A stretch of 42,634 nt of DNA, from the NCBI GenBank assembly GCA_040758475.1, contig JBFLVN010000002.1, positions 1 to 42,634 of the forward strand, written 5' to 3'. This DNA comes from Bdellovibrionota bacterium. Lineage in GTDB: Bacteria > JAGRBM01. Positions 2 through 28,663 of the stretch are shown in pieces (positions within the stretch are counted from its first letter, which is position 1; the number at the start of each line of letters is the position of its first letter). A program made the translations under genes and the position numbers. The notes under the pieces are model-generated. The model worked only from the letters and a program-made list of their open reading frames with translations. It did no database searches and had not been told where the DNA came from.

Positions 2-1522
2 ATGGAGTACATCCCGGAATTCGCGGACCGGAAATTTGGCCGCAAGAAATACGAGTACTTGCTGCCCGAACTCCGGGAAATTCTGGAACCCACCAACGGG
101 ATCATCGTCTATCAGGAGCAGATCATTCAGATCGCCTCCAGGGTGGCGGGTTTTACTCTCGCGGAAGCCGATGATTTCCGCCGTGCCGTCGGAAAAAAGA
201 AAGCCGACCTCATCAAGGCCCAGCGCGAGAAATTCATTGCGGGCGCGGTCAAGCGCGGCCACGCCCAGAGAAAACTCGAACAGCTCTTCGACGACATCGA
301 GAAATTCGCAAACTATGGCTTCAACAAGTCGCATTCCGTTGCCTACGCCTTCGTCACCTATCAAACGGCTTTCCTGAAGACCCATTACCCGCGGGAGTTC
401 ATGGCGGCGCTCCTCACGAGCGAAATGGACGACACCGACAAGGTGCTCAAGAATTTGAACGAGTGCCGGCAGATGGGAATTCCCGTCGATCCGCCGGACG
501 TCAATCAGTCGGCCGTCGATTTCGTGGTGGCGGGAGAGAAAATTCTTTTCGGCCTTAAAGCGATCAAGGGGATCGGGGAATCGGCGATCGAAGCGATCCT
601 GGAAGCCCGCAAGAATATCGGAAAATTCACGGGCCTCTACGAGTTCTGCCAGCACGTGGACCTGCGGCGCGTGAACCGGAAGGTGATCGAGGCACTCATC
701 AAATCCGGCGCTTTCAATTCTTTCGGGGCGCCGCGGGCGAAACTCTTCGCGGCGCTCGAAAAAGCGATCGAGACGGGGCAGGCCGCCCAGCGCGACCGGC
801 AGTCGGGCCAGACCTCCCTCTTCGGCGCCTTCCAGGCCGCTTCGGGGACCCAGGCCGAGGTCTATCCGGACGTCCCCGAATGGCCCAAGAATGAACTCCT
901 TCAATACGAGCGCGAGTGCCTGGGTTTCTACGTGACGGAGCACCCGCTTTCTTCCTACGCGGACGCGCTTGCGCCCTACACGACCCACGACACCCGCAGC
1001 GTCCTCGAACTCCCGGACGGCGTGGAAGTGCGCCTGGGGATTCTGGCAGGGGCCGTCACCGAACGGCGGAACAAACAGGGGCGGCTCTTTGCCAAGGTCC
1101 AGGCGGAAGATGAGAAGGGGTTCCTCGGGGTCTTCGTCAACGCCGATCTTTACGAAAAATATGCCCCCATTTTGAACTCCAAAGAGCCCCTCGTCCTGTG
1201 CGGCAATACCTCCCGCGATCCCATTTCGGACGCCGTCGAAGTCCGGGCGAGGGAATTCATCCCGCTTTCCACCGCCCGGGAGAAATTATCCCGCCGCTTC
1301 GATATCCGGATCGACACCCGCATGGCCGACCCCGGCGTCGTGGACAAACTCCACGCCGCGCTCGCCAAGTCCCGCGGCAAGTGCCAGACGACGATCGTCC
1401 TCGTCCTTCCCGATGGCCGGAACGAAATGGTCCTTCGCCTTGAACAGCGCATTTCTCCTTCCGCCGACCTCATTAAGGAAATCCGCTCCCTCTCGCGGGG
1501 TATCAGCCTCGCGGCGGTGTGA
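2..1522 (+). CDS. dnaE: DNA polymerase III alpha subunit, C-terminal ~506 aa (5' end cut by window edge)
   Basis: The ORF is open to the window start. The motif NYGFNKSHSVAYAFVTYQTAFLKTHYPREFMAALLTSEMDD is typical of DnaE and is followed by an OB-fold-like C-terminal region. Stop TGA at 1520-1522. Confidence 0.95.
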   Translation: MEYIPEFADRKFGRKKYEYLLPELREILEPTNGIIVYQEQIIQIASRVAGFTLAEADDFRRAVGKKKADLIKAQREKFIAGAVKRGHAQRKLEQLFDDIEKFANYGFNKSHSVAYAFVTYQTAFLKTHYPREFMAALLTSEMDDTDKVLKNLNECRQMGIPVDPPDVNQSAVDFVVAGEKILFGLKAIKGIGESAIEAILEARKNIGKFTGLYEFCQHVDLRRVNRKVIEALIKSGAFNSFGAPRAKLFAALEKAIETGQAAQRDRQSGQTSLFGAFQAASGTQAEVYPDVPEWPKNELLQYERECLGFYVTEHPLSSYADALAPYTTHDTRSVLELPDGVEVRLGILAGAVTERRNKQGRLFAKVQAEDEKGFLGVFVNADLYEKYAPILNSKEPLVLCGNTSRDPISDAVEVRAREFIPLSTAREKLSRRFDIRIDTRMADPGVVDKLHAALAKSRGKCQTTIVLVLPDGRNEMVLRLEQRISPSADLIKEIRSLSRGISLAAV

Positions 1523-1680: not shown

Positions 1681-3126
1681 ATGGGAGATTTCAAGAAGAT
1701 GGAACGGATTCGTTTCGTCGCTATCAGCGCATTTCTTTTGCTTTCCCTTTCCCTTCCGGCCCGGGCCCAGGATGCCGTCGAGCGGATGGACAAGGGCCTG
1801 ATCAACTGGGGCCAGGGGTACGTGGAGGCGAGCGGTTCGGGGGCGCCCCCGTCCAACGCTCCGAACATGGCCGTGGCCCGCATCAGTGCCGAGCGGGCCG
1901 CCAAGGTCGATGCCCTTCGCAACCTCCTTGAAACCGTCAAAGGCGTCCGCGTCGATTCGGAAACCACGGTCGAAAATTTCACGACAACCTCGGACACCAT
2001 CCGCACCCGGGTCGAAGGGATCGTCAAAGGGGCCCAGCAGATCGACAAGAAATACCTGGGCGACGGGGCAGTCGAAGTGACGCTCCGGATGCCGCTCACG
2101 GGCGACCTCTCCCAGGTGATGCTCGAACAGGTCGTGCAGAAGGCCCCCCAGCCCGGCCAACGCGTCCAGGGATTTTCCCCTTATAGCGGCATGGGGGCGG
2201 GGTCTTACGAATCCGTTCTCAAGGACCTCCAGCGCAAACGCGAAGAAGAAGACCGGCGCCGCAGGGAAGCTGATGTCGAACTCCGCCAACTCGAAGCCGA
2301 GCGCCGGGCGGCCGAAAAAGCCAGAAAAGAAGCCGAAGAAGCCCGCAAGCAGGAAGAAGCGCGGTTCAAGAAGTTGAAGGACGATGAAGAGCGTGCCGCA
2401 GCCGAAGCGGTCCTCGCTGAGAAGAGGAAGAAAGAGGAAGAAGAACGCCAGCGCCTCGCCCAGATCGAGGAAGAGCGCCGGCAGGCGGAGATGGAAAAAG
2501 AGAAGGCCGAGACCGAGAAGAAACGGCTCGCCGACTTGATCGAGGAGCAAAAGCGCGCTCAGCAAACGGCGGCGGCGAAAGTCCCATCCGAGCCAGTGGC
2601 GTCCGCTGCCGCTGCTCCTGCGGGAAGCGCCGCTTCGGGCCCTCCCGCTTCCGCGTCCAGCGCTCCGGCAGGGGGCGGCGGCGGTGCCGCGGCCGCGGGG
2701 GCAGTGGTTCCCGTCAAATCTTCCGGGGGCAACACCGTGACGGCCATGAACGCCCAGGACCAGAAGGTCGATCCCGCCCAGGCCCACGGCTGGACGGGGC
2801 TCATCATCGACGCGCGGAGTTTGGGTCTTAAGCCTTCCCTTGTTCCCGAGCTTTTGGCCGATGACGGGACGCTCGTATACGGCGCCAAGAGCGTCGAATT
2901 CGACGACGCGGTGAAAAAGGGGCTCGTGGGATACGCCCGCGACGTGAAAGCCGCCATCAAGCACCTTCGCGTGACGGACGATCCCATCCTCGTCAAAGGC
3001 GTCAAAGCCTACGGCGCCAAGAACTCCGATGTCATTCTGCATACCGGTGATGCAAAGGTGATTGGACAGACCGACACCGGAAACGGTTATTTGAAAAAGA
3101 GCCGGGTGATGATCGTCTACGATTGA
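1681..3126 (+). CDS. Secreted LPP20/FlgP-like domain protein, long form (signal peptide, LPP20-like N-domain, E/R/K-rich helix, Ala/Gly/Ser/Pro linker, unassigned C-domain)
   Basis: Track ORF 1519..3126 is trimmed to ATG 1681 (alternative ATG 1699), which yields a Sec signal FVAISAFLLLSLSLPARA|QD. The N-domain NMAVARISAERAAKVDALRNLLETVKGVRVDSETTVENF..IRTRVEGIVKG resembles the LPP20 lipoprotein family. It is a clear paralog of 5324..6175 at both ends. Confidence 0.75.
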   Translation: MGDFKKMERIRFVAISAFLLLSLSLPARAQDAVERMDKGLINWGQGYVEASGSGAPPSNAPNMAVARISAERAAKVDALRNLLETVKGVRVDSETTVENFTTTSDTIRTRVEGIVKGAQQIDKKYLGDGAVEVTLRMPLTGDLSQVMLEQVVQKAPQPGQRVQGFSPYSGMGAGSYESVLKDLQRKREEEDRRRREADVELRQLEAERRAAEKARKEAEEARKQEEARFKKLKDDEERAAAEAVLAEKRKKEEEERQRLAQIEEERRQAEMEKEKAETEKKRLADLIEEQKRAQQTAAAKVPSEPVASAAAAPAGSAASGPPASASSAPAGGGGGAAAAGAVVPVKSSGGNTVTAMNAQDQKVDPAQAHGWTGLIIDARSLGLKPSLVPELLADDGTLVYGAKSVEFDDAVKKGLVGYARDVKAAIKHLRVTDDPILVKGVKAYGAKNSDVILHTGDAKVIGQTDTGNGYLKKSRVMIVYD

Positions 3127-3165
3127 TCGGTGGGGATTTAAGGGGTTCGAAGGGAGCGGGTTTTC

Positions 3166-5064
3166 ATGTCGTTCCGGCTGAAGCGGGAAAAACTTTTCGC
3201 GTTGGCCCTGGTAATGGGCATGGTACTGGCCGCCGCGCCGGCCGCCCGGGCCGAAACCGAAGTCCTTACCGGTTCCCACCGGGTCGTCTACGACATCATC
3301 AATCCCCTCGGTGTCGAGCGGATCGTCAACTACAAGAACAACGGTTACGAAATCCGCGTGCTCGAAGAGCCCGACGAATATTCCAAGCGTGTCCTCGTAG
3401 AAGTCCAGATGACACCGCTCGGTTCCAAGGAGCCATATCCGATCAAAGCCGGGCGTCTTCCCCCCGATTACAAATCGAAATTCCTGGGGCCCGAGAAGAT
3501 GATCCAGGTGGGCCACCCCGACATCACGGCGTTGGCCCGGAAGCTCTCGGCGGGCAAACCGACGGTGGCGGAGGTCTACGAAGCCATCGCCAACCACCTT
3601 CGCGACTACATTACTTACGATGCTTCTCCCCAAGTGCAGCAGGACGCACTAAACGTCCTGCGCACGGCGCGGGGTTCGTGCGTGGGGTTTACGACCCTCT
3701 CCATCGCCCTTCTTCGGTCTGCCGGGATTCCGGCCCGCTACGCCCACGGGTATCTCCCGCCGGGCTACGAGTGGGGCATCACGCAGGACTATTGGGGAGT
3801 GAAAACTTCTGGCGGCGGCTATCACGCCTGGCTCGAACTCTATTACCCGGACGCCGGGTGGACGTTTTCCGACGGGGAATACTCGAAGAACTTCGTCGAT
3901 CCCTACCACATCCTCCGGTACACGGACGGGATCATCGATCCGCCTCCCCGTGGCGATGCGACTCTCGACGTGGACAAGGGAACGACTTTCACCCTCTTTG
4001 AGGAGACGAACGTCTCCCATCCCATCGATGGATACGCCGAGCCTCAGAAAACCATCCTCGGCCGGCAGATCGGTGCCCAACGGGCGGCGGTCGTTTACGG
4101 AAAGGTGCTCGATGAAGAGGGCAAGCCCATCGAAAAGGGCGAGGTGATCCGATGGGAAGGCAAGCGCGGCACGGTGACTTCTTTCAATCGCGCGAGTTAC
4201 GCCGTGGTGGGGCTTTCCGCGGGGCCCCGGAAGATCACGATCAAGGCGCCAGGCTACGTCCCCGAGAACCTGGAACTCACGCTTGCTGAGCGGCAGGCGC
4301 TGGAGAAAGACGTGCGTCTTGCCCGGGAAGGGGCCGTGCGCGGAAAAGTAACCGACGAAACGGGAAAGCCGGTCGAATCCGGCGAAGTGATCTGGTGGCA
4401 GGGGGATCGCGGAACGCCTCAGCCCTTTGAGAAGGGGAGTTTTGAATTCCTGGGCCTCCCGGCCGGGGAGCACCGCTTCACGATCCGCTCCCAGGGGTTC
4501 GTGGAGGAATCGTTTACGGTCAAGCTGGCGGCCCGCCAGACGGCGGACCGGGAGATAAAACTCCGGCGCGGGTTTTCCATCCGAGGCAAAATCCTCAACG
4601 ACATGGCGGCCGGGGTCCGGGATCAGGCCCGGATATTGCTCTCCAAGGACCAGAAATCCCTTGTGTACGAGCTTGCCGAAGACCGTTCATTCCTCATCGA
4701 AGGGATCGATCCCGGCGATTACGAAGTAAGCGTTGAGATTAAAGGATTTGAGAACAGAGACATCGCGGTCAAAGCCATTCCAGGGGAGACGCGCCAGCTC
4801 GATTTAAAGCTCGAACCAGCTGGCTGGATCGAAGGAAAGGTTGTTGACGGTAAGGGAATGCCCCTTGGGGGAGCCGCCGTCTATATAAAGAAGGGGAATT
4901 CCTGGGTTGGAACGCCCGCCCGGGAGGACGGAACGTTTGTTCTTTACGGTATCGCGAGCGGGAAGCATCAGCTCAAGGCCCGGCACAAACAATTGGGCGA
5001 GCAAAAAGCCGAAGCCGAAGTGCTAGGGCCCCAGGCGACGCAGTTAATAATTCGTTATCCATGA
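3166..5064 (+). CDS. Secreted transglutaminase-like cysteine protease-fold protein with about four carboxypeptidase-regulatory-like (CarboxypepD_reg) beta-sandwich repeats
   Basis: GGGAG RBS lies before ATG 3166 and the signal peptide is LALVMGMVLAAAPAARA|E. The transglutaminase core has Cys in ARGSCVGFT, then GIPARYAHGY, His in GGYHAWLELYYPDAGW and Asp in TFSDGE. Repeats start at GKVLDEEGKPIEKGEVI, GKVTDETGKPVESGEVI, GKILND and GKVVDGKGMPLGGAAVYI. Confidence 0.85.
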   Translation: MSFRLKREKLFALALVMGMVLAAAPAARAETEVLTGSHRVVYDIINPLGVERIVNYKNNGYEIRVLEEPDEYSKRVLVEVQMTPLGSKEPYPIKAGRLPPDYKSKFLGPEKMIQVGHPDITALARKLSAGKPTVAEVYEAIANHLRDYITYDASPQVQQDALNVLRTARGSCVGFTTLSIALLRSAGIPARYAHGYLPPGYEWGITQDYWGVKTSGGGYHAWLELYYPDAGWTFSDGEYSKNFVDPYHILRYTDGIIDPPPRGDATLDVDKGTTFTLFEETNVSHPIDGYAEPQKTILGRQIGAQRAAVVYGKVLDEEGKPIEKGEVIRWEGKRGTVTSFNRASYAVVGLSAGPRKITIKAPGYVPENLELTLAERQALEKDVRLAREGAVRGKVTDETGKPVESGEVIWWQGDRGTPQPFEKGSFEFLGLPAGEHRFTIRSQGFVEESFTVKLAARQTADREIKLRRGFSIRGKILNDMAAGVRDQARILLSKDQKSLVYELAEDRSFLIEGIDPGDYEVSVEIKGFENRDIAVKAIPGETRQLDLKLEPAGWIEGKVVDGKGMPLGGAAVYIKKGNSWVGTPAREDGTFVLYGIASGKHQLKARHKQLGEQKAEAEVLGPQATQLIIRYP

Positions 5065-5132
5065 GGCCAAGGGGCTGGGGAACGAGGGATTTGTGCGAAC
5101 TTTTGGGCATGTTTCCGGGAACCGGGGGCTTG

Positions 5133-5161
5133 TTGACAGGCTTGCACCCCCCACGTATGGT
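5133..5161 (+). promoter_or_regulatory. Candidate sigma70-type promoter (TTGACA-17 nt-TATGGT)
   Basis: TTGACA at 5133-5138, an exact 17-nt spacer, and TATGGT at 5156-5161. It sits in the 259-bp gap upstream of the gene starting at 5324 and would give a leader of roughly 155 nt. Confidence 0.4.
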
Positions 5162-5244
5162 ACGGCTTACCGGGGATACGAGTGGGCTTGTGGTTTTAGC
5201 CCTTTTAACCATTTAAAGCGGTTTAAACGGCCGGCGGGACGTAG

Positions 5245-5260
5245 TGTGGTTTACGTCACA
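5245..5260. promoter_or_regulatory. CRP/FNR-type palindrome TGTGG-N6-TCACA
   Basis: TGTGGTTTACGTCACA matches 9 of 10 positions of TGTGA-N6-TCACA. It lies 64 nt upstream of ATG 5324, inside the predicted leader. Confidence 0.3.
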
Positions 5261-5323
5261 ACCGGCTATGGGGAAATCGTCTAAAACGTTACACGTCAGG
5301 AGTGCGGAAGGAGTTCCAAGCAT

Positions 5324-6175
5324 ATGTTTCGCAAGGCAGTGGTCGCATTGGCTCTGAGTGTCTTGTTGGCGCCCGCGGCGGCTTTCGCGCAGGGGAGTTT
5401 CTTCGGTGACGCCGGCGGGGCGTACGTCCAGCAGTCGGGTCCCGGCCAGCTCAACTGGCAGTCCATGAAGATGCGCGTATCGGGGCAGGGGGCTCCCAAT
5501 GCCAACGCGCCCAATATCGCGGTGGCGCGTCTTGGCGCCGAACGGGCCGCGAAAGCGGATGCCTTCCGCAACGCTCTTGAAACCATCCAGGGCGTTTACG
5601 TGAACTCCGAGTCCACCGTTCAGGATTTCATGCTCCAGAGCGACACGATCCGCACCCGGGTCGAGGGTGTACTCAAGGGTTTCCAGGTCGTCGACCGCAA
5701 GTACTTCAGCGACGGCGGCGTGGAAATCATCATCGAAGTTCCCGTGAGCGGCGAGATGGCTGCCGCCCTCATCGGCAACCAGCAGTTCGGCCAGGTTCCG
5801 GCCGCTCCGGCTCCGGGCGCGGCGGCTCCCCAGGGCCCCGTCTACACGGGCCTCATCATCGACGCCCGCGGCCTTGGCGCCAAACCCGCCATGAGCCCCA
5901 AGGTGGTCGATGAGCGTGGTTCCGAGGTCTACGGCTCGGCCATGGTGGGCCGGGAATTCGCCTTGGACCTGGGCGTGGTGGGTTACGCAAAGGATCTCGA
6001 AGCCGCCAAGACCAACGACCGGGTGGCCAACAACGCCCTCGTCGTGAAGGCCACCAAGGTTCAGGGCGCCAAGGGGACGGACCTCGTCCTCGGCCAGAGT
6101 GACGCGGACGGCATCCGCAACGCCTCCGAGAACCTCAGCTTTTTGTCCAAGTGCCGCGTGATCATTCTCCTGTAA
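5324..6175 (+). CDS. Secreted LPP20/FlgP-like domain protein, short form (same N- and C-domains as 1681..3126, short Pro/Ala linker)
   Basis: GGAAGGAG RBS lies 10 nt upstream and the signal peptide is LSVLLAPAAAFA|QG. NIAVARLGAERAAKADAFRNALETIQGVYVNSESTVQDF..IRTRVEGVLKG aligns with the long form. The C-domain TGLIIDARGLGAKPAMSPKVVDERGSEVYG aligns with TGLIIDARSLGLKPSLVPELLADDGTLVYG. Confidence 0.8.
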   Translation: MFRKAVVALALSVLLAPAAAFAQGSFFGDAGGAYVQQSGPGQLNWQSMKMRVSGQGAPNANAPNIAVARLGAERAAKADAFRNALETIQGVYVNSESTVQDFMLQSDTIRTRVEGVLKGFQVVDRKYFSDGGVEIIIEVPVSGEMAAALIGNQQFGQVPAAPAPGAAAPQGPVYTGLIIDARGLGAKPAMSPKVVDERGSEVYGSAMVGREFALDLGVVGYAKDLEAAKTNDRVANNALVVKATKVQGAKGTDLVLGQSDADGIRNASENLSFLSKCRVIILL

Positions 6176-6244
6176 CCAGGGAAACGGGATCATTGCGAAA
6201 AATTCCGAAGAGTCAGGAATGTGAAGGAGAAAGAGGAGACCATC

Positions 6245-7414
6245 ATGAATACGAAGATGAAATTCACGGCGATCGCGTCGAGCTTGCTGCTCGCCGCCGT
6301 TCTCGTCGGATGTCCCGGCAAGGCCCGCCAGAAGGAATCGGCGATGGATACGCCCGAGCATCATACCAAGGTGGGCGAGCGCCTTATGGCCGAGGAGAAG
6401 TGGGATGAAGCCACCCGCGAGTTCGAACTGGCGATCCAGCTCGATCCCAAGTTCGCCGCCGCTTACGTAGGACGGGGCCTCGTGAAGGCCGCCAAGAAGG
6501 AATGGAAGGGCGCCCAGGAAGACCTGGAAAAGGCCCTCGACGTGGCCAAGAGCAAGGGCGATAAGGCCGCGGCCCACACGGGCATGGTGCGGCTCCTTAC
6601 CGAACAGCGCCCCGACAAGGATTGGATCGAAGACGCTGAAGACCACTACGAGCAAGCCATCGATCTCGACGCCAAGTACTCGGCCGCCTATTACTACTTC
6701 GGCGTCGCCCAGAAGAAGGCCTTCAATTTCGAAAAGGCCGGCGACCTCTTCAAGAAGGTTCTCGACCTCAACACGGATTTCGTTCCCGAAGCGACGCGCG
6801 AGTGGCGCCTCGTCCAGGACATCCAGCTCGCCGCCCCCGGCTCCGAGATCGGCAAGCAGATCGCCCTGATCGACAAGCTCACCCGCGCCGACGCGGCGGC
6901 CCTCTTCATCGAAGAACTCAATCTCTCCAAGCTCTACAAAGTGCGCGGGAAGAAGCAGTTCGATACGTCCTTCAAGGCCCCCGACGCCCAGACCAAGATG
7001 CAGACCGAAACCATGGTCAAGATGGCGGAAGCGACCGACATCGCCAATCACGTCCTCAAGGCGGATATTGACGAGGCGCTCAAGATCGGCATCCGCGGCT
7101 TGGAAGCCTATCCGGACCACACCTTCAAGGCCGACGAGACGGTCGCCAAGGCCGAATACGCCGTGATGATCGAGGACATCCTCATCAAGATCACGGGCGA
7201 TCAGGACCTGGCCACCAAGTTCATTGGCGATACGAGCCCGTTCCCCGACGTACGCAACGACGCGCCGTACTTCAATGCGATCATGGTCTGCTCCTCGCGG
7301 CAGATTCTGGGCGCCAAAGACCTCTCGACCGGCGAGTTCGGGGCCAAGGACCCGATCACCGGCGCTTCGGCGCTGCTCGCGATCCGCAAGCTCAAAGAGG
7401 CCCTTCAGATTTGA
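6245..7414 (+). CDS. Lipoprotein with N-terminal TPR repeats and C-terminal SLH-like (S-layer homology-like) motifs
   Basis: Track ORF trimmed to ATG 6245 (GAAGGAGAAAGAGGAG upstream). Lipobox is LLAAVLVGC. TPR-like segments include WDEATREFELAIQLDPKFAAAYVGRGL and AEDHYEQAIDLDAKYSAAYYYFG. SLH-like segments are LTRADAAALFIEEL, PDHTFKADETVAKAEYAVMIEDIL and FPDVRNDAPYFNAIMVCSSRQILGA..FGAKDPITGASALLAI. Confidence 0.7.
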   Translation: MNTKMKFTAIASSLLLAAVLVGCPGKARQKESAMDTPEHHTKVGERLMAEEKWDEATREFELAIQLDPKFAAAYVGRGLVKAAKKEWKGAQEDLEKALDVAKSKGDKAAAHTGMVRLLTEQRPDKDWIEDAEDHYEQAIDLDAKYSAAYYYFGVAQKKAFNFEKAGDLFKKVLDLNTDFVPEATREWRLVQDIQLAAPGSEIGKQIALIDKLTRADAAALFIEELNLSKLYKVRGKKQFDTSFKAPDAQTKMQTETMVKMAEATDIANHVLKADIDEALKIGIRGLEAYPDHTFKADETVAKAEYAVMIEDILIKITGDQDLATKFIGDTSPFPDVRNDAPYFNAIMVCSSRQILGAKDLSTGEFGAKDPITGASALLAIRKLKEALQI

Positions 7415-7466: not shown

Positions 7467-7505
7467 GCCCGGTTGTTACTGGTTTAGTGGTTGGGGGAGG
7501 TTCTC

Positions 7506-8711
7506 ATGAAAGCCCGTTTCGTCCGCTTGGCGCTTTTCCTGGCTGCGCTCCTTTCGTCCGCTTCCGTGGCGAAGGCGCAGGAAGACGTCGCCACCGTCAC
7601 CGTCGAAGGATTCGAAGCGATCATCGGTGACAATCAGCAGATCGCCCGGGACAAGGCGATCGAACAAGCGCTTCGCAGCGCCGTCGAGCAGGTGGCCGGT
7701 ACGATCGTCTCCAGCCAGACGCTCGTCGAGAACTTCCAGCTCGTAAACGACAGCATCTACGCCAAGTCCCGCGGCTTCGTGAAGAGCCACAAGGTCCTCT
7801 CCGAAGGCGCGCCCGGGGATGGCACCTACAAAGTCACCGTCCAGGTCACGGTCGCCAAGGCCATGCTGCAGGAGTCCCTCAAGGATTTGGTCGAAGGGAC
7901 CATGCAGGTTACCAACAAGCCCCGCACCCTTTTTATGATCGCCGAACAACAGTACGGCGATACGGTCTACCACGCGTGGTGGACGTACTTGGAAGGGGTT
8001 AAGATGGGGGGGCACGCCGAATCCTTCGATCTAAATACCGTCGAGAACTCTTTCCTCGAAATTTTCACGAACAATTCTTTCCCCGTCGTGGACATCGCCA
8101 CGGCCAGCAAGAACATCAAAGTATCGAACGCCTTCGGGGTTGTGGATCTGACCGACAAGGCGGTGCGGGACTTGGGCAACCAGATGGCCGCCGAGATGGT
8201 TATTTACGGAAAGGCCTTCACCAAGAAGGGCCAGCAGATCCTCAATTCGCCCATGTATTCCTATTCAGCGAACATCTCTATCAAGGTGGTCAACACCGAT
8301 ACGGGCCGGGTCGTGACGAGCGCCGCTGAGTCAGTGACGATTCCCCATTCAATTCCGGAAGTGGGGACGACCGAGGCCATGAAACAGTGTGCCAAGAAGG
8401 TGGCCGACCTGATCATGCCCAAGATGATCACGACCATTGCGCAGAACAAGAGCGTCGAACTCCAGGTGACCTACGGCCGGTACAACGACCTTGCCAAGTT
8501 CAAGCAGGCCTTGAAGGAAGACATCCGCTCCGTCCAGGCGATCCACCAGCGGGCGGCCGCCAAGGGTTCCACCACGCTCGAACTCGATCTGAAGACCGGC
8601 ACGGCCCAGAGCATCGCCGATGAGATCGCCGTCCGGGAATTCAAGGAATTCCTGGTCGAGGTGGAGGAAGTCACCCAGAATACGATCAAGATTTCCCTGG
8701 TGAAAAAGTAA
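7506..8711 (+). CDS. Secreted FlgT-like protein (LPP20/FlgT-N-like domain plus TolB-N/CsgG-like alpha/beta domain plus C-terminal domain)
   Basis: Trimmed to ATG 7506 with GGGGGAGG RBS; signal peptide LFLAALLSSASVAKA|QE. The N-domain VTVEGFEAIIGDNQQIARDKAIEQALRSAVEQVAGTIVSSQTLVENFQLVNDSIYAKSRGFVKSHKVL..GTYKVTVQVTV has the FlgT-N/LPP20 pattern. The middle region is PRTLFMIAEQQ...FPVVD...AAEMVIYGKA. Confidence 0.6.
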   Translation: MKARFVRLALFLAALLSSASVAKAQEDVATVTVEGFEAIIGDNQQIARDKAIEQALRSAVEQVAGTIVSSQTLVENFQLVNDSIYAKSRGFVKSHKVLSEGAPGDGTYKVTVQVTVAKAMLQESLKDLVEGTMQVTNKPRTLFMIAEQQYGDTVYHAWWTYLEGVKMGGHAESFDLNTVENSFLEIFTNNSFPVVDIATASKNIKVSNAFGVVDLTDKAVRDLGNQMAAEMVIYGKAFTKKGQQILNSPMYSYSANISIKVVNTDTGRVVTSAAESVTIPHSIPEVGTTEAMKQCAKKVADLIMPKMITTIAQNKSVELQVTYGRYNDLAKFKQALKEDIRSVQAIHQRAAAKGSTTLELDLKTGTAQSIADEIAVREFKEFLVEVEEVTQNTIKISLVKK

Positions 8712-8787
8712 GAAACGTCGACTACAAACCCTCCGGCCCCGAAAGCCGGGGGGGGAGAAATTGGAAAGCGAAAGGGGTTTTAGGAAC

Positions 8788-9726
8788 ATGACGAAGATGG
8801 CCGGGAAAGCATGGTTTGTGGTTCTAGTGTTGGCAGTTGGTTTAAGCGGATGCCCTAAACCAACGCCGCCGCCGGACCCGCTCCAGAACAAGACCTACAC
8901 CCTCGAATACAAGGGCCCCAAGAAGCGGGTCGGCATCGTCAAGTTCGACAACAAGGCGAGCTACGCCAAGAAAAAGCGCGTGGGCGAAGCCATCGTGGAC
9001 ATCGTGACCACGGAACTCGCCAAGACCAAGGCGTTCATCGTCGTGGAACGCGCGGAATTGGACAAAGTCCTCCAGGAACAGGCCTTGGGGCAGTCGGGTG
9101 CCGTAAATCCGGCAACGGCCGCCAAGGCGGGCCGCGTGCTCGGCCTCCAGTCGCTCCTCATCGGTACGATCAGCGAGTTCGGCGTGACCCCTTCCGCCAC
9201 CGATCTCGTTCTCTTCAAGCAGAAGAAGCAGGAAGCCAAGGCGACCGTGGACGTGCGGCTCATCGACGCAACCACGGGCCAGATCCTTTATGCGGATTCG
9301 GGTAGTGGAGCGGGAAGCGTTACTTATAGAGAATTTCTCGGCATGGGTGCCAAGGGTGGTTACGACGAGAGTCTCGAACAATTCGCCGTTCGTAGCGCAG
9401 TCGTCCAGTTCATGCAGAACCTCATCAACCAGCTCGGCAAGACCGAGTGGTACGGCAAGGTCGTCAAGGCCAACGCCGGCGAGGGGACGGCCATCGTGAA
9501 CGCGGGCCAGGAAACGGGCCTCAACGTCGGCGACAAGATCGTCGTGAACACGCTGGGCGAGACCCTCACGGACCCTGACACGGGCATGGAATTAGGGCAG
9601 GAGTTAGGCCCCGTGGTGGGCGAACTCGAAGTCGTGAGCTTCTTCGGCCGCGACGCCGCCAAGTGCAAGATCGTAAGCGGCCGGAGCACCATCCAGGCCG
9701 GCCAGCAGGTGAGCCTCAAGAAGTAA
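8788..9726 (+). CDS. CsgG/HfaB-family outer-membrane lipoprotein with an extra C-terminal beta-rich domain
   Basis: Lipobox is LVLAVGLSGC. The CsgG-family core is RVGIVKFDNKA...GEAIVDIVTTELAKTKAFIVVERAELDKVLQEQALGQSG...AKAGRVLGLQSLLIGTISEFG. The C-terminal ~90 aa (WYGKVVKANAGEGTAIVNAGQETGLNVGDKIVV...VSLKK) is additional. Alternative start at ATG 8797. Confidence 0.85.
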   Translation: MTKMAGKAWFVVLVLAVGLSGCPKPTPPPDPLQNKTYTLEYKGPKKRVGIVKFDNKASYAKKKRVGEAIVDIVTTELAKTKAFIVVERAELDKVLQEQALGQSGAVNPATAAKAGRVLGLQSLLIGTISEFGVTPSATDLVLFKQKKQEAKATVDVRLIDATTGQILYADSGSGAGSVTYREFLGMGAKGGYDESLEQFAVRSAVVQFMQNLINQLGKTEWYGKVVKANAGEGTAIVNAGQETGLNVGDKIVVNTLGETLTDPDTGMELGQELGPVVGELEVVSFFGRDAAKCKIVSGRSTIQAGQQVSLKK

Positions 9727-9760: not shown

Positions 9761-10096
9761 ATGAAATCGTTTCGCCTGATTTCCGCTTCCTTGGTAATTG
9801 TGGCCCTCCTCGTGGGAGCCGGATGCGCCAGCCGTTCCGTCACGGGTGTTGGCAACGAAGGATTCGTCGTTTTCAGCGTCGAGCCCGACGACGCCGAACT
9901 CTGGGTGGACGGCGTGAAGGCGGGGCTCGTCAAGGACTACAACGGGAGCCGCGGGGTCCTTCAGCTGACGAGCGGCACCCACAAGATCGAGATCAAGAAG
10001 GAAGGCTACCAGTCCCACCGCAAGGAAGTTTTTGCCGGGGCCGGAGCCAAGCAGACCATTAGCGTCCGCCTTACGCCGGTTGCGCCGGCGCAGTAA
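9761..10096 (+). CDS. PEGA-domain lipoprotein
   Basis: GGAG RBS; signal/lipobox ASLVIVALLVGAGC. The PEGA pattern is FVVFSVEPDDAELWVDGVKAGLV...LQLTSGTHKIEIKKEGYQSHRKEV. Confidence 0.8.
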   Translation: MKSFRLISASLVIVALLVGAGCASRSVTGVGNEGFVVFSVEPDDAELWVDGVKAGLVKDYNGSRGVLQLTSGTHKIEIKKEGYQSHRKEVFAGAGAKQTISVRLTPVAPAQ

Positions 10097-10132: not shown

Positions 10133-10960
10133 GTGAGCAAGCGGCGGCGGACAGCGGCGGTTGTGGCGGTCCTCGTCTTGCTGGCGGGCGCGGCACCCTC
10201 CTTCGCCGACCCAGCTCCTTCCGGAACGGGCGTCGTTACACGCCTCGAAGGAACGGCTTTCTGGTCCCTTTCCCAGGAAAAAGATTGGAAACCCCTCAAG
10301 CTCAAGGATACGGTGATCGAGGGGCGCTACATCCGGACGGAATCCAATTCCCGGATGGAAGTGACTCTCCCCGACGGCGGGGCCGTGCGCGTGGCGCCGG
10401 GAACGACGCTCTATCTCTCGAAACTTCTCTTCCCCAAAGACAAGAGTTCCAAGCAATTCGAGGCCAAGCTCTTTGTGGGGCGCCTCTGGGCCAAGGTCCA
10501 GGCGGTGACGGGCGGCGATTCCTTCTTCAAGGTCCGCACCGGTAATGCCGTCGCGGGCGTCCGCGGCACGGCCTTCCAGGTGAACTACGGCGGCCAGGAC
10601 GCCACTTTCAAGTGCTACGAAGGAAAGGTGGCCGTGCAGGCCGCGATGCAGGGTGGAACATCCCAGGTTCCCGGCGGACGGTACGAAGTTCCAGGACCCC
10701 AGCAGGTTCCGGGACCCCGCGAAGTTACGGTGGAAGAATGGACCCGCATCGTGAGCAGCTGGCAGTACGTAAGCGTTAACGCCCAGGGCGTCCCTTCCGA
10801 ACCCAAGGACATCGATCCCGCGGCCGATGCGTCGGATTCCTTCAGCATGTGGAACCGGGAACTCGACAACATCGCGTTGCCCGAGGCGGAAGAGAAGAAA
10901 TCAGATGATACCCCGGTGCCTCCGGCTCCGGAAGCTCCACCGGCCGAACCGGCCAAGTAA
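10133..10960 (+). CDS. Periplasmic FecR-domain protein with Pro-rich C-terminal tail (paralog 1)
   Basis: GTG start with GGGGAGGG RBS; signal peptide VAVLVLLAGAAPSFA|DP. The FecR-like core is VVTRLEGTAFWS..WKPLKLKDTVIEGRYIRTESNSRMEVTLPDGGAVRVAPGTTLYL...VRTGNAVAGVRGTAFQV. The tail is TPVPPAPEAPPAEPAK. Confidence 0.85.
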   Translation: MSKRRRTAAVVAVLVLLAGAAPSFADPAPSGTGVVTRLEGTAFWSLSQEKDWKPLKLKDTVIEGRYIRTESNSRMEVTLPDGGAVRVAPGTTLYLSKLLFPKDKSSKQFEAKLFVGRLWAKVQAVTGGDSFFKVRTGNAVAGVRGTAFQVNYGGQDATFKCYEGKVAVQAAMQGGTSQVPGGRYEVPGPQQVPGPREVTVEEWTRIVSSWQYVSVNAQGVPSEPKDIDPAADASDSFSMWNRELDNIALPEAEEKKSDDTPVPPAPEAPPAEPAK

Positions 10961-13900: not shown

Positions 13901-14614
13901 GTGGGCGCTGAAACTTCCTCCGGACCACTTCGTTCGGTCCTTTACCGCGATTTTCTGGCTCTCGACCCTCCCCCGGAAGAGCCGGGGCTGCGAATCGGCC
14001 GGATCGAAGCGGCCCGGATGGTCCTCTCGAAAGTCCACCTCGACGGCCGCCTGGAAGGGGCCGACGTCGCGGTGGACAATCTGAGCGCGGCCTTTTTGGA
14101 CGGGAGCGTGAGCGGAAACGCGCGGGTTCATCTCGAAAAGCCACTCTATGCTCAGGTTTCGCTGGGAGCCCGGGACTTGGATTTCCGCAGAATCATCCCG
14201 GCGGGACGTTTGGCAGGTTATTCGCGCAAGGACGTCGCTTCTTATCTCGTCAACGGCGACGTGAACGCCAAAGTATTTTTCGCTCCTTTGGACCTTCAGG
14301 GAGAAGTGGAACTCACCCGCGTGGGGAGGGAAGTCGTCTATGCGATCCTCGATTGGGTCGATCCCCAGCGGGCGAATGCCGGCATTACGAATGTCCGGCA
14401 GAAACTTGAGAAATACGCAGTGATTGGCCCCAAGATCGTTTCATTCAAGGCTGAGCACGGAAATGCAGACCTCAGCATTTTTATGCGAGAACAGGCTAAA
14501 GCTAGCCAATTGCACCTTTTGCTGGGTTATTGCGTTGTTACCAGGGGTTGCCAACTGGAATACACCATCCCGCGAATCGCCTTGAAATCGCTTTTGGGGG
14601 TCTATCTAAAATGA
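10997..14614 (+). CDS. AsmA-like / YdbH-like large envelope protein (N-terminal membrane anchor, about 1150 aa predicted beta-rich)
   Basis: GTG start after GAGGAA; single N-terminal TM helix WVRLLVWSLAGGGAVLAALLAYLVFSF. The body is long, repetitive and Ala/Gly/Ser/Leu-rich, as in AsmA-family groove proteins. Its stop overlaps the start of a DUF1318/YdbL-like gene (ATGA), mirroring E. coli ydbH-ynbE-ydbL. Confidence 0.6.
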   Translation: MSTPPESAGRPSQKTKRWVRLLVWSLAGGGAVLAALLAYLVFSFPSEWARVELEKRLSKTLGARVTVGHLGIDLLHGLEAREIRVAPESEAASWFSLKSLILEVEFFPLLRGEVIVRALRLEDLDLLLEKDSSGKWNWVFLNPAEKPAATPEPAAATPPGPLDLKVRIEEFEIARANFHLRTPDFALDAGPFWLSAQGSLEKDGRIDAKLSARRDDGTAVAASWDLAKSKNNASMGLEGELSAFLEKGDLANARLTWDLSPLALSSAGREEEFSEGARIELEASASLASAKGQVGRLSVAIPETLSLAASASADWSGPLKAEVRLSELELLLSGALRRARIFMEKPPRVEGTLSLKDLLVQVQPEGASSSTRISGGIGFSEGAFEASGAVMEGLTASLSASDLRLGAGGLPEGGAVRGEIGWKAFARGAALAVSGASFTADAKAEDGKTQIALDGKAGLALSAGSVRYDGPLSLSAAGRLDSKGKRFDLSSATAGVKALSLSASGSFPLESASGDFRAKADANVDVPAFLESWLRVGGTPSALEVAGLAGNVKLSVRADRKGKEPLSGEAGLSANLFTGSSGSFSLSEGVFHLAAKTRHRKDFSMETASAKGEASAAWVGTGGRGARDARLELNADISGKPSEQVLEAKADLRVRKLEVDDPKAKARLAEAPPLHLTAQASTQLQSLATNVSASLGLGESIGLRVAGNLWPKEERLDLQARSAGDWALSEILAILPTSVRAPLRGGTAGGVLSWNARASGRYAKKEKQGFPLDLRGNVNWRGVDFSLVTSDISVSGLSGEVRIRPGEGRQGVEAAGHLQADSSRIPAFRSEKLGPTVASFRAKTEDFSEFQIEELFLYSDALKTAIKAGAEIRPAASPPTLSVRANVVLGTPKRWTVRPGMELAGTLNLALSGERVGEGPLRVRGEAGFSDFSAWLGKNVTVEGVSGKLPLVTDLSLRGAPLLSYEPLVGAETSSGPLRSVLYRDFLALDPPPEEPGLRIGRIEAARMVLSKVHLDGRLEGADVAVDNLSAAFLDGSVSGNARVHLEKPLYAQVSLGARDLDFRRIIPAGRLAGYSRKDVASYLVNGDVNAKVFFAPLDLQGEVELTRVGREVVYAILDWVDPQRANAGITNVRQKLEKYAVIGPKIVSFKAEHGNADLSIFMREQAKASQLHLLLGYCVVTRGCQLEYTIPRIALKSLLGVYLK

Positions 14615-15243: not shown

Positions 15244-15244
15244 A

Positions 15245-23251: not shown

Positions 23252-23289
23252 ATTGGAAAATTAAGGCCGGGAGCGAAGGAATTTTTCCC

Positions 23290-28375: not shown

Positions 28376-28663
28376 CCGGAGCCATTCTCATTTCTGGGGT
28401 TCGGTTGTCTGAGTGTGAGGAGAGAATCTTCCAGCCGGAGTGGGGCTGCCTTGCCGGTATTTCGCCAGCGGCCGCAAGAAAGCCCGGCCGATGGGTTTGT
28501 GGCGCGGAGTTTTAGCCTTTTAATGTTGCTTCGCTCCCGCATTGCATTAAAAGCAAGTCCCTTCTATGATTCTGGTAGTTTTGTTCGCCCGCTGATTTCT
28601 CTCCGATGGAACCGCGCCAGGGCTATGCGCTTCCTAGGCAGGATGGGCAGTAAGGTAGGGGGA

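What the first reader, a model, noticed from the sequence alone, without database searches (positions are those of the whole stretch)
1681..6175. Paralogous secreted proteins sharing an LPP20/FlgP-like N-domain and an unassigned C-domain, in long-spacer and short-spacer versions
The products of 1681..3126 and 5324..6175 align closely at both ends. In the N-domain, APNMAVARISAERAAKVDALRNLLETVKGVRVDSETTVENF..SDTIRTRVEGIVKG aligns with APNIAVARLGAERAAKADAFRNALETIQGVYVNSESTVQDF..SDTIRTRVEGVLKG. In the C-domain, TGLIIDARSLGLKPSLVPELLADDGTLVYG..GLVGYARDVKAA..RVMIVYD aligns with TGLIIDARGLGAKPAMSPKVVDERGSEVYG..GVVGYAKDLEAA..RVIILL. The similarity is visible even at nucleotide level (GACACCATCCGCACCCGGGTCGAAGG versus GACACGATCCGCACCCGGGTCGAGGG). 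They differ by a roughly 230-aa insert between the domains in the long form. I cannot assign the C-domain to any family. Two proteins with the same ends and very different linker lengths suggest a distance-setting or tethering role.
Basis: seen in the sequence. Interest (0 to 1): 0.7.

Follow-up and report, generated by a model that had tools for sequence, protein, structure and literature searches.

The report
Paired periplasmic FlgP-like scaffold proteins
Two ancient sister genes encode exported proteins with the same two end domains (a flagellar-ring-type FlgP domain and the orphan "D2" domain of the syphilis protein Tp0624); one is stretched by a stiff rod of about 200 residues and always sits beside a transglutaminase-like enzyme, and both belong to a very widespread, uncharacterised, non-flagellar cell-envelope gene cluster.

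Summary
The products of 1681..3126 and 5324..6175 share an N-domain (52% identity) and a C-domain (41% identity) and differ by an insert of about 200 aa. The N-domain is FlgP/LPP20-type and has the segment that forms the ring-building hairpin in FlgP.

The C-domain can be assigned. It is domain D2 of Treponema pallidum Tp0624 (PDB 5JIR; profile E=1e-10; model superposes at 2.3 Å). That fold is solved but has no known function and no Pfam model. The whole short protein equals the Tp0624 D1–D2 unit.

The pair is not a recent duplication. Short-linker and spacer forms are two deep clades found in Thermodesulfobacteriota, Nitrospirota and relatives. The C-domain family has 3,666 cluster representatives. 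Almost none are lipoproteins.

The spacer changes chemistry between lineages but stays rod-like. Here it is a 121-residue ER/K single helix plus a flexible tail. Elsewhere it is a TonB-like Pro/Lys rod. All 19 clear spacer-clade genes lie next to a transglutaminase-like protein with an invariant Cys-His-Asp triad.

The short form heads a conserved operon with TPR–SLH, FlgT-like, CsgG-like, PEGA and FecR proteins. Non-flagellated Myxococcaceae carry its core, so it is not flagellar.

The most likely role is a periplasmic scaffold plus tether. That function is inferred, not shown.

The parts
1681..3126 (+). Long (spacer-clade) paralogue, 481 aa. The alternative start at 1699 gives the 475-aa database copy P0121.
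   Evidence: ORF. Paralogy. Spacer-clade membership.
1699..1767 (+). Sec-type signal peptide of the long form (MERIRFVAISAFLLLSLSLPARA|QD). It has no lipobox Cys.
   Evidence: Read from the sequence. A family-wide absence of a lipobox is shown (230 of 234). The cleavage site is inferred from the AxA rule.
1777..2142 (+). N-domain of the long form: FlgP/LPP20-type SHS2 domain. The conserved post-helix segment at about 1942..2034 corresponds to the ring-forming hairpin insert of FlgP.
   Evidence: Pfam LPP20 30.5 bits. Foldseek hit to the C. jejuni motor scaffold chain 9hmf_A, TMt 0.70. The AF2 model has low pLDDT at residues 83-105. Coordinates.
2203..2565 (+). Rod: one continuous 121-residue ER/K-type α-helix, about 18 nm long if it stands as a single helix.
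   Evidence: AF2 models helix 169-289 with pLDDT of about 96. It is 61% E/D/K/R and 14% hydrophobic, has no heptad seam, and has 40 of 117 i/i+4 opposite-charge pairs. A weak, sub-threshold TolA match was found.
2566..2784 (+). Flexible Ala/Gly/Ser/Pro-rich tail of the linker, about 73 aa.
   Evidence: AF2 pLDDT is about 40. Composition.
2785..3123 (+). C-domain of the long form: Tp0624-D2-type domain.
   Evidence: Foldseek hit to 5jir_A, E=3.7e-8, rmsd 2.3 Å over 128 columns. Profile against PDB gives E=1e-10 over the full domain.
3166..5064 (+). Exported transglutaminase-core protein followed by four CarboxypepD_reg β-sandwich domains. It is the obligate neighbour of spacer-clade genes.
   Evidence: Pfam. 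Cys/His/Asp are invariant in 21/21 homologues. Adjacent to 19/19 spacer-clade genes. Closest solved relative is 6g49, which I take to be TgpA from memory, E=2.7e-4. Stalk length rises with rod length.
5324..6175 (+). Short paralogue, 283 aa. The whole protein equals the D1–D2 unit of Tp0624.
   Evidence: ORF. AF2 gives pLDDT 82 and pTM 0.76. Foldseek hit to 5jir_A, E=1.9e-13 over 274 columns.
5426..5773 (+). N-domain of the short form: FlgP/LPP20-type. The conserved post-helix segment lies at 5591..5683.
   Evidence: Pfam LPP20 32.9 bits. phmmer hit to the 171-aa C. jejuni motor lipoprotein 9hmf_C, E=5.4e-10, nearly gapless over 94 residues. AF2 pLDDT is below 50 at residues 100-114.
5843..6172 (+). 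C-domain of the short form: Tp0624-D2-type domain.
   Evidence: No Pfam family covers it.
6221..7414 (+). TPR lipoprotein (lipobox LVGC) with one C-terminal SLH domain. It is the conserved partner of the short form.
   Evidence: Pfam. Synteny. SLH was detected in 9/10 orthologues.
7491..8711 (+). FlgT_N-like / LipL46-like exported protein. It is a third protein in the locus with the same type of N-domain.
   Evidence: Pfam FlgT_N 30.9 bits against a cutoff of 28.8. NCBIfam LipL46 match over 347 aa. Hit by the N-domain HMM. Conserved downstream of the short form in Myxococcota and Thermodesulfobacteriota.
8761..9726 (+). CsgG-like lipoprotein.
   Evidence: Pfam CsgG E=6.6e-28. Synteny.
9761..10096 (+). 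PEGA-domain lipoprotein.
   Evidence: Pfam. Synteny.
10133..10960 (+). FecR-domain exported protein, LipL45/Lsa33-like.
   Evidence: Pfam E=7.9e-18. NCBIfam. It is the most widely conserved last gene of the operon.

Best explanation
Both genes encode Sec-exported, non-lipidated periplasmic proteins. They are built from the two-domain module that was crystallised as D1–D2 of T. pallidum Tp0624. The N-domain is a FlgP/LPP20-type SHS2 domain. It carries the roughly 30-residue segment that in FlgP forms the β-hairpin knitting subunits into rings. The C-domain is a D2 domain with no known activity. The two proteins represent two ancient sister clades.

The short form has a 21-residue linker, and its D1 and D2 domains are modelled packed together. 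It is the first gene of a conserved, non-flagellar envelope operon. That operon also encodes a TPR–SLH lipoprotein, a FlgT-like protein, a CsgG-like lipoprotein, a PEGA lipoprotein and a FecR-domain protein. I infer that these build an outer-membrane-proximal scaffold, attached to peptidoglycan, through FlgP-like oligomerisation.

In the long form the D1–D2 linker has been replaced by a stiff rod. Here the rod is a 121-residue ER/K single helix (about 18 nm) plus about 70 flexible residues. In other phyla it is a TonB-like Pro/Lys rod. I infer that the long form is a tether that holds D2 at a distance from the D1 assembly.

Its obligate neighbour is a periplasmic transglutaminase-like enzyme with a Cys-His-Asp triad. 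The enzyme's β-sandwich stalk lengthens with the rod. I infer that this enzyme works on or alongside the tether, by cross-linking or cleaving it.

Shown: homology, fold, export signal, ancient paralogy, synteny and the physical character of the linker. Inferred: oligomerisation, tether function and the enzyme–substrate relation.
For: Paralogy.

N-domain:
- Pfam LPP20 above cutoff.
- E=5.4e-10 to the 171-aa lipoprotein of the C. jejuni motor scaffold (9hmf), and hits to Vibrio FlgP chains.
- Foldseek hits to 9hmf_A.
- The FlgP paper (PMC12222027) places a ring-forming hairpin insert between the SHS2 helix and the second strand. It also reports that ring formation in the family correlates with that insert.
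- The window proteins have a near-gapless alignment through this region. It is the most conserved stretch of the family. AF2 cannot place it in a monomer.

C-domain:
- Profile match to 5JIR D2, E=1e-10 over the full length.
- Superposition at 2.3 Å.
- The whole short model matches D1+D2 over 274 columns.
- Parker et al. (PMC5104382) describe D1–D2 as an integrated unit.

Export without lipidation: 230 of 234 homologues lack a lipobox.

Ancient split: the tree and identity statistics. There are 21 loci with two paralogues.

Rod-like linkers:
- 13-26 aa in the short clade.
- 63-110 aa with 35% Pro and 11% Lys in most of the spacer clade.
- 150-230 aa, helical and charged, in the rest of the spacer clade.
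- One continuous helix of 121 residues with pLDDT of about 96, with single-helix composition.

Transglutaminase coupling:
- Adjacent to 19/19 spacer-clade genes.
- Triad invariant in 21/21.
- Stalk lengths of 238, about 297-300, about 382-385 and 461 aa track linker lengths of 63, 68-102, 203-227 and 220 aa. Spearman correlation is 0.84 with n=16.

Operon conservation.

Link to peptidoglycan: the TPR partner keeps an SLH domain in 9/10 orthologues. In Tp0624 an OmpA-like domain is fused to D1–D2.
Against: - No experiment exists for any member, and D2 has no known activity.
- In Tp0624 D1 and D2 bury a large interface. The long insert might therefore loop out rather than separate the domains. 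The long model's pTM of 0.36 leaves this open.
- Linker length varies from 63 to 227 aa between lineages, so no single distance is conserved.
- The stalk/rod correlation rests on about four independent lineages.
- Without a lipid anchor or a transmembrane segment, it is unknown which end lies near which envelope layer.
- Some Nitrospirota carry extra, divergent paralogues without a transglutaminase.
- Myxococcota lack the spacer form altogether, so the tether is an accessory and not the core.
Confidence: 0.45

Rival explanations
1. The insert is a projecting arm or an enzyme substrate, not a ruler. D1 and D2 stay packed as in Tp0624. The rod loops out from the compact module. It serves as a display or interaction element, or as the Lys/Gln-rich substrate that the neighbouring transglutaminase cross-links into a periplasmic mesh or onto the wall.
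For: - D1–D2 form an integrated unit with a large buried interface in Tp0624.
- The short model has pTM 0.76 and matches both domains of 5JIR.
- The rod is followed by about 70 flexible residues, which could return to the module.
- The linkers contain Lys and Gln: 11% K and 4% Q in the mid class, 7% K and 7% Q in the long class.
- The closest solved relative of the neighbour is deposited as a protein-glutamine γ-glutamyltransferase.
- TgpA has transglutaminase activity in vitro (PMC3507681).
Against: - Pro-rich PPII rods and ER/K helices are classic extended spacers. This rests on established knowledge of TonB and TolA domain II, not on a test here.
- The rod character has been kept through a complete change of chemistry.
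- The partner enzyme's stalk lengthens with the rod. That fits two proteins spanning the same gap.
Confidence: 0.25
2. The proteins are accessories of an export or surface-anchoring pathway. The CsgG-like lipoprotein would be a curli- or holdfast-type outer-membrane channel. The D1–D2 proteins would be periplasmic adaptors for a secreted fibre or for an S-layer.
For: - There is a strong CsgG match (E=6.6e-28).
- The partner carries an SLH domain.
- The transglutaminase protein has a weak, far sub-threshold match to the anammox S-layer family through its β-sandwich repeats.
Against: - The CsgG-like gene is missing from the minimal operon of Myxococcota, which is D1D2, FlgT-like, PEGA and FecR.
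- No candidate secreted substrate is conserved in the loci.
- The CsgG fold also occurs in non-channel scaffold proteins: the same protein has LpoB and FlgT_M matches.
Confidence: 0.1
3. The proteins are flagellar motor accessories, equivalent to the H-ring or basal disk. The FlgP-like, FlgT-like and CsgG/FlgO-like proteins would surround a flagellar basal body.
For: - There are homology matches to FlgP, FlgT_N and FlgO/CsgG.
- The Vibrio H-ring is built from FlgT, FlgP and FlgO.
- TPR proteins also occur in the Campylobacter scaffold. This last point is from my own knowledge.
Against: - No flagellar gene was found among the 34 major ORFs of the 42.6-kb window that I scanned, nor among the genes listed for the relatives' loci I inspected.
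- The core operon is present in Pyxidicoccus, Corallococcus, Archangium and other Myxococcaceae. These bacteria have no flagella (established knowledge).
- The proteins lack the lipid anchor of FlgP.
Confidence: 0.04
4. The pair is a recent, lineage-specific duplication with a meaningless low-complexity expansion.
For: A 26-nt near-identical stretch is shared by the two genes.
Against: - The two forms fall in separate deep clades. Between clades the C-domain is 41% identical, against 53-63% within clades.
- Both forms co-occur in distant lineages, including Nitrospirota and deltaproteobacterial MAGs.
- Each form has its own conserved neighbour.
Confidence: 0.01

Closest known systems
Tp0624 D1–D2 tandem unit of Treponema pallidum (PDB 5JIR; Parker et al. 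2016, PMC5104382)
   Same: - The whole short protein aligns to D1+D2: Foldseek E=1.9e-13 over 274 columns.
- The C-domain is D2 by profile (E=1e-10, full length) and by fold (2.3 Å).
- The linker of about 20 residues in the short form matches linker L1 of Tp0624.
- Parker et al. already noted about 50 D1–D2-only proteins in other bacteria.
   Different: - There is no OmpA-like D3 domain. A wall-binding SLH domain is instead supplied by the neighbouring TPR lipoprotein.
- The long form breaks the compact unit with a 220-aa rod.
- D1 is recognisably FlgP/LPP20-like here. The Tp0624 paper does not note this; it compared D1 with the trigger-factor domain.
- No function is known for either protein.
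FlgP, in the Campylobacter basal disk and the Vibrio H-ring (PMC12222027; bioRxiv 10.64898/2025.12.02.691832)
   Same: - SHS2-type fold.
- A post-helix segment of the same length as the ring-forming hairpin.
- A short C-terminal helix.
- Encoded together with FlgT-like and CsgG/FlgO-like proteins.
   Different: - No lipobox, so no outer-membrane lipid anchor.
- An extra D2 domain.
- No flagellar context, and presence in non-flagellated Myxococcaceae.
- Ring formation is untested.
TolA domain II and the TonB proline-rich region (periplasm-spanning rods)
   Same: The long-form linker is a long charged helix with a weak tolA_full match (35.6 bits). The mid-class linkers are PEKK/KPEP-type Pro/Lys repeats. 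Both are the classic chemistries of extended periplasmic spacers (established knowledge).
   Different: - No N-terminal membrane anchor, no TolA domain III and no TonB C-terminal domain.
- The TolA score is below its cutoff of 59.45.
- The resemblance is compositional and physical. It is not homology.
TgpA of Pseudomonas aeruginosa (PMC3507681). I take its periplasmic domain to be PDB 6g49, from memory.
   Same: The neighbour protein has a periplasmic transglutaminase core with an intact Cys-His-Asp triad. Its closest solved relative is 6g49, which is deposited as a protein-glutamine γ-glutamyltransferase (E=2.7e-4). TgpA has transglutaminase activity in vitro.
   Different: - It is soluble and exported rather than a polytopic membrane protein.
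- It carries one to four CarboxypepD_reg β-sandwiches.
- Its substrate is unknown.
- It could equally be a protease.
Braun's lipoprotein Lpp as a periplasmic ruler (my own knowledge, not tested here)
   Same: The concept is shared: a rod-like protein whose length could set the distance between envelope layers.
   Different: There is no homology, no lipid anchor and no evidence of covalent wall attachment. This is a functional analogy only.

Membership tests
LPP20/FlgP family (Pfam PF02169; SHS2-type) | Sequence match above the Pfam gathering score | tested here: met
   30.5 bits (long) and 32.9 bits (short) against a cutoff of 25.9.
LPP20/FlgP family (Pfam PF02169; SHS2-type) | SHS2-like β-α-β-β fold | tested here: met
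   The AF2 secondary structure shows it. Foldseek hits the C. jejuni motor scaffold chain 9hmf_A with probability 1.00 and TMt 0.60-0.70.
LPP20/FlgP family (Pfam PF02169; SHS2-type) | N-terminal lipobox cysteine (lipoprotein) | tested here: not met
   The signal peptides end in AFA|QG and ARA|QD. 230 of 234 homologues lack a lipobox. The database label "LPP20 family lipoprotein" is therefore misleading on this point.
Ring-forming FlgP subgroup | Hairpin insert between the SHS2 helix and the second strand | tested here: inconclusive
   A conserved segment of about 30 residues occupies that position. It aligns almost without gaps to the C. jejuni protein. It is the most conserved part of the family. 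AF2 leaves it at pLDDT below 50 in the monomer, so its hairpin shape is not shown.
Ring-forming FlgP subgroup | Homo-oligomeric ring or continuous β-sheet | not testable with these tools
Flagellar H-ring / basal-disk system (FlgP, FlgT, FlgO) | Encoded with, or functionally tied to, flagellar genes | tested here: not met
   No flagellar gene was found among the ORFs scanned in the window or in the related loci inspected. The operon is present in non-flagellated Myxococcaceae.
Tp0624 D1–D2 module | D2 domain: full-length sequence homology and the same fold | tested here: met
   Profile E=1e-10 over positions 4-116. Superposition at 2.3 Å over 128 columns. No other PDB fold matches.
Tp0624 D1–D2 module | D1 and D2 in tandem, joined by a linker of about 20 residues and packed as a unit | tested here: met
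   Met for the short form: a 21-aa linker, pTM 0.76 and a 274-column match to 5JIR. Not met for the long form: a 220-aa linker, pTM 0.36 and only one domain aligned at a time.
Tp0624 orthologues proper (treponemal three-domain protein) | C-terminal OmpA-like D3 domain | tested here: not met
   Both proteins end with D2, and no OmpA match was found. Parker et al. find D3 joined to D1–D2 only in treponemes.
TolA | Equivalog score, N-terminal anchor and domain III | tested here: not met
   TIGR02794 scores 35.6 bits against a cutoff of 59.45, and only over the charged helix.

The most novel reading that the evidence does not exclude
The locus encodes a widespread, non-flagellar periplasmic ring or lattice that is the ancestral relative of the flagellar H-ring and basal disk. 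Within it, the spacer paralogue would be a molecular ruler or tether. Its length would be matched by the β-sandwich stalk of a dedicated periplasmic transglutaminase, which would covalently fix or release it. This would be a new way for diderm bacteria that may lack an Lpp-type ruler to set and lock envelope spacing.
Probability: 0.15. Interest if true: 0.8.

Novelty: new variant of a known kind. Interest (0 to 1): 0.58.

Why it matters
**An orphan fold joined to a large family.** The D2 fold, known only from one syphilis protein, is linked here to a very large family. That family has 3,666 cluster representatives at 50% identity and no Pfam model for D2. It is found in Thermodesulfobacteriota, Nitrospirota, Myxococcota and other groups.

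**Origin of flagellar ring proteins.** FlgP- and FlgT-type proteins, known as flagellar ring builders, have non-flagellar relatives organised in a conserved envelope operon. This bears on where the flagellar H-ring and basal disk came from.

**A testable lead.** The spacer paralogue is strictly coupled to a transglutaminase-like enzyme whose stalk lengthens with the rod. This gives a concrete way to study how periplasmic distances are set or locked. Cultured Myxococcaceae carry the core operon, so genetics and cryo-ET are feasible. The result would also bear on the role of Tp0624 in the T. pallidum envelope.

Tried and rejected
- **Pfam and NCBIfam on the C-domain.** No family matched.
- **PDB sequence search with the FlgT-like and CsgG-like neighbours.** Nothing significant was found.
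- **Genome scan with the C-domain alignment A3.** I used the full-length alignment A1 instead.
- **Literature searches.** Searching the operon's domain combination (LPP20, CsgG, FecR, PEGA) returned no paper. LPP20 plus Myxococcus returned nothing relevant.
- **Flagellar interpretation.** Rejected on gene context and on taxonomic distribution.
- **Recent duplication.** Rejected.
- **TolA membership for the long form.** Rejected, because the score is below cutoff and the match is compositional.
- **A possible transglutaminase–D2 fusion (P0272).** It is a 5'-truncated fragment. It joins the enzyme core, cut just before the catalytic Asp, to the end of a linker plus D2. This is most likely a deletion or a misassembly of adjacent genes, so I do not use it as fusion evidence.
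- **Promoter scan.** There is one σ70-like site, at 5133..5161, in the only long intergenic gap. The count is not above chance.


Full report
**1. The observation**

The window carries a same-strand gene series:
- dnaE 3' end (2..1522)
- the long gene (1681..3126)
- a transglutaminase-like gene (3166..5064)
- the short gene (5324..6175)
- TPR–SLH (6221..7414)
- FlgT_N-like (7491..8711)
- CsgG-like (8761..9726)
- PEGA (9761..10096)
- FecR (10133..10960)

BLASTP of the long and short products gives 52% identity over 116 aa at the N-terminal end (E=1e-40). It gives 41% identity over 109 aa at the C-terminal end (E=8e-23). The quoted 26-mers are at 1993 and 5642, with none expected by chance. Both N-domains pass the Pfam LPP20 cutoff. 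The linkers are 220 aa and 21 aa, so the insert is about 200 aa.

**2. The N-domain**

phmmer against PDB sequences finds the 171-aa "putative lipoprotein" of the C. jejuni flagellar motor scaffold (9hmf; E=5.4e-10). I take this chain to be FlgP, from its size and annotation. The alignment is almost gapless over 94 residues. Vibrio FlgP chains are also found. Foldseek with both AF2 models returns 9hmf_A, with TMt up to 0.70.

The C. jejuni in-situ paper describes FlgP as a modified SHS2 fold. It has a long β-hairpin inserted between the helix and the second strand. That hairpin makes the continuous sheet of each ring. The paper also states that ring formation in this family correlates with the insert (PMC12222027).

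The window proteins carry a segment of about 30 residues at that position (GV..V.SE.TV..F...SDTIRTRVEG..KG). It is the most conserved stretch of the whole family. AF2 leaves it at pLDDT below 50 in monomer models, while the rest of the domain is above 85. This is what one expects of an element that is ordered only between subunits. That reading is an inference, because oligomers were not modelled.

**3. The C-domain**

No Pfam or NCBIfam model covers it. The PDB sequence search nevertheless aligns it to Tp0624 of T. pallidum (5JIR). The single sequence gives E=3.5e-6. A 24-sequence profile gives E=1e-10 over positions 4-116.

The AF2 model of the short protein has pLDDT 82 and pTM 0.76. It matches 5jir_A over 274 columns, covering D1 and D2, with E=1.9e-13. 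The C-domain of the long model superposes on 5JIR at 2.3 Å over 128 columns. No other PDB fold matches.

The C-domain is therefore assigned structurally, to a domain whose function is unknown. It is not met.

**4. Size and nature of the family**

An exhaustive profile search with the C-domain finds 3,666 cluster representatives (50% identity) at E≤1e-3, and 2,335 at E≤1e-10. The domain is nearly always at the C-terminus of proteins of 270-360 aa. Of the 143 newly listed representatives, 131 also have the N-domain, and most of the rest are fragments.

Among 234 closer homologues, 230 have Sec-type signal peptides without a lipobox. This contradicts the automatic name "LPP20 family lipoprotein", and it differs from FlgP.

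**5. Long and short forms are ancient sister clades**

Linker lengths fall into three classes:

| Class | Linker length | Composition |
|---|---|---|
| Short | 13-26 aa | mixed Pro/Gly/Thr/Ala/Ser |
| Mid | 63-110 aa | 35% Pro, 11% Lys, with PEKK/KPEP repeats as in TonB |
| Long | 150-230 aa | Ala/Glu/Arg/Lys-rich |

A distance tree of the concatenated end domains separates the short-linker proteins from all spacer proteins. Between the clades the C-domain is 41% identical, against 53-63% within them. Twenty-one loci carry two paralogues and three carry three. The second refutation criterion, a recent lineage-specific duplication, is also not met.

**6. The rod**

AF2 models residues 169-289 of the long protein (window 2203..2565) as one uninterrupted helix with pLDDT of about 96. 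About 60 residues at pLDDT of about 40 follow it.
- The helix is 61% E/D/K/R and 14% hydrophobic.
- It has no heptad seam.
- It has 40 of 117 i/i+4 opposite-charge pairs.

This is the signature of an ER/K single α-helix, like TolA domain II. At 1.5 Å per residue it would be about 18 nm long (inference). The weak tolA_full match is below its cutoff and is compositional.

The same position holds Pro/Lys rods in Nitrospirota and Thermodesulfobacteriota. The chemistry has been swapped while an extended, stiff character has been kept.

**7. Gene context**

I used encoding-contig look-ups and a genome scan. I then ran tblastn of the window's proteins against 87 loci.

| Lineage | Gene order |
|---|---|
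| Thermodesulfobacteriota-type | short – TPR – FlgT-like – (GNA1162-like) – CsgG – PEGA – FecR |
| Nitrospirota | short – TPR–SLH – transglutaminase – spacer form – … – CsgG – FecR |
| Myxococcota (Pyxidicoccus, Corallococcus, Archangium, Anaeromyxobacter) | short – FlgT-like – PEGA/FecR |
| Window-like lineages (L001, L006, L022) | long – transglutaminase – short – TPR–SLH – FlgT-like – (CsgG – PEGA) – FecR – AsmA-like |

- **Partner of the short form.** The TPR partner keeps a single SLH domain in 9/10 orthologues. A wall-binding module therefore accompanies D1–D2 in trans here, whereas it is fused (OmpA-like D3) in Tp0624.
- **A third related protein.** The FlgT-like protein's N-domain is itself detected by the N-domain HMM. 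The locus thus encodes three proteins with this type of domain.
- **No flagellar link.** No flagellar gene appears among the ORFs I scanned in the window. Myxococcaceae have no flagella (established knowledge). A flagellar role is therefore rejected, even though the parts resemble the Vibrio H-ring set of FlgT, FlgP and FlgO.

**8. The transglutaminase coupling**

All 19 genes that clearly belong to the spacer clade have a Transglut_core and CarboxypepD_reg gene within 520 bp. All 21 such enzyme genes keep the Cys, His and Asp of the catalytic triad.

The closest solved relative is 6g49, a "protein-glutamine γ-glutamyltransferase" (E=2.7e-4). From memory I take 6g49 to be the periplasmic domain of P. 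aeruginosa TgpA. TgpA has transglutaminase activity in vitro (PMC3507681).

The enzyme's length from the catalytic Cys to the C-terminus rises in steps of roughly one β-sandwich:

| Linker length of the neighbouring spacer protein | Enzyme length, catalytic Cys to C-terminus |
|---|---|
| 63 aa | 238 aa |
| 68-102 aa | 297-300 aa |
| 203-227 aa | 382-385 aa |
| 220 aa (this window) | 461 aa |

The Spearman correlation is 0.84 with n=16. This suggests two proteins that span the same gap. It rests on only about four independent lineages.

**9. Most likely mechanism and its rivals**

I commit to the following, with confidence of about 0.45.
- The short D1–D2 protein is the soluble core subunit of a non-flagellar scaffold that lies near the outer membrane and is attached to the wall. 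The scaffold is assembled through FlgP-type hairpin exchange, together with the FlgT-like protein and the lipoproteins.
- The spacer paralogue is an accessory tether. Its rod places D2 away from the D1 assembly.
- The transglutaminase-like enzyme acts on or beside the tether, either cross-linking or cleaving it.

The main rival (about 0.25) keeps D1–D2 packed and treats the rod as a projecting arm or cross-linking substrate rather than a ruler. A secretion or anchoring role centred on the CsgG-like protein (about 0.1) is weakened by the absence of that gene in Myxococcota. The flagellar and recent-duplication readings are essentially excluded.

**10. Novelty and score**

The domains and the existence of D1–D2-only proteins are known. 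I could not find the following described anywhere:
- the recognition that the "LPP20 family" C-domain is Tp0624 D2;
- the two-clade structure, with rod-like spacers of interchangeable chemistry;
- the strict transglutaminase coupling with matching stalk length;
- the conserved non-flagellar operon resembling the H-ring parts list.

I rate this a new variant of a known kind, with interest of about 0.58. It is a solid, testable lead on envelope architecture, but no function has been demonstrated.

Noticed in passing
window 10997..15243 (+), and 32438..35836 (-): A 1205-aa AsmA/YhdP/DUF748-like protein is followed by a DUF1318 protein. From my own knowledge, this resembles the YdbH–YnbE–YdbL-type lipid-transport set. 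It sits directly downstream of the operon, and the same pair follows the operon in L001, L002 and L006. A second YhdP/DUF748-like gene lies on the opposite strand.
   Followed up: partly
window 15065..23251 (+): A giant 2728-aa protein has PD40 and many TPR repeats. Its L001 homologue carries a Tricorn_N hit. It is conserved after the DUF1318 gene and is followed by a second FecR-domain gene at 23215..24246.
   Followed up: no
window 3166..5064, and loci L005-L052: The number of CarboxypepD_reg β-sandwiches in the transglutaminase-like protein rises with the linker length of the neighbouring spacer protein. Enzyme lengths from the catalytic Cys are 238, about 300, about 385 and 461 aa.
   Followed up: yes
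L024, L025, L027, L035, L043 (Nitrospirota): These loci have a variant arrangement. Two or three divergent D1–D2 paralogues follow the TPR gene, and there is no transglutaminase. The extra copies are only 46-56% identical to either main clade.
   Followed up: partly
P0283 (1123 aa) and P0272 (350 aa fragment): P0283 carries a large N-terminal region containing an HExxH motif (HEFGHH), ahead of a complete D1–D2 module. P0272 joins a transglutaminase core, cut before the catalytic Asp, to a linker end plus D2. P0272 is probably a deletion or a misassembly.
   Followed up: partly
L003 16292..20816, and L042 14083..16110: In a Thermodesulfobacteriota-type MAG and in Pyxidicoccus fallax, the operon lies just upstream of thrS. 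In L003 it is followed by infC, rpmI, rplT and pheS. This hints at an old, housekeeping-like genomic position.
   Followed up: no
window 7491..8711 and 10133..10960: The FlgT_N-like and FecR-domain proteins give sub-threshold NCBIfam matches to Leptospira lipoprotein families (LipL46, LipL45) and adhesin families (Lsa33, Lsa19). The LipL46 match spans 347 aa. This suggests that spirochaetes carry relatives of the whole set, not only of Tp0624.
   Followed up: no
window 5133..5161 (+): A σ70-like site (TTGACA, 17 nt, TATGGT; 10 of 12 matches) lies in the only long intergenic gap, 260 bp ahead of the short gene. Short-gene transcription could therefore be separate from that of the long gene and the transglutaminase-like gene. 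The site count is not above chance.
   Followed up: no
window 26183..30604 (+): Two further genes lie downstream of the cluster: a glucose/sorbosone dehydrogenase with a cytochrome c domain, and an SLT lytic transglycosylase with three LysM domains. The second is another wall-related gene.
   Followed up: no
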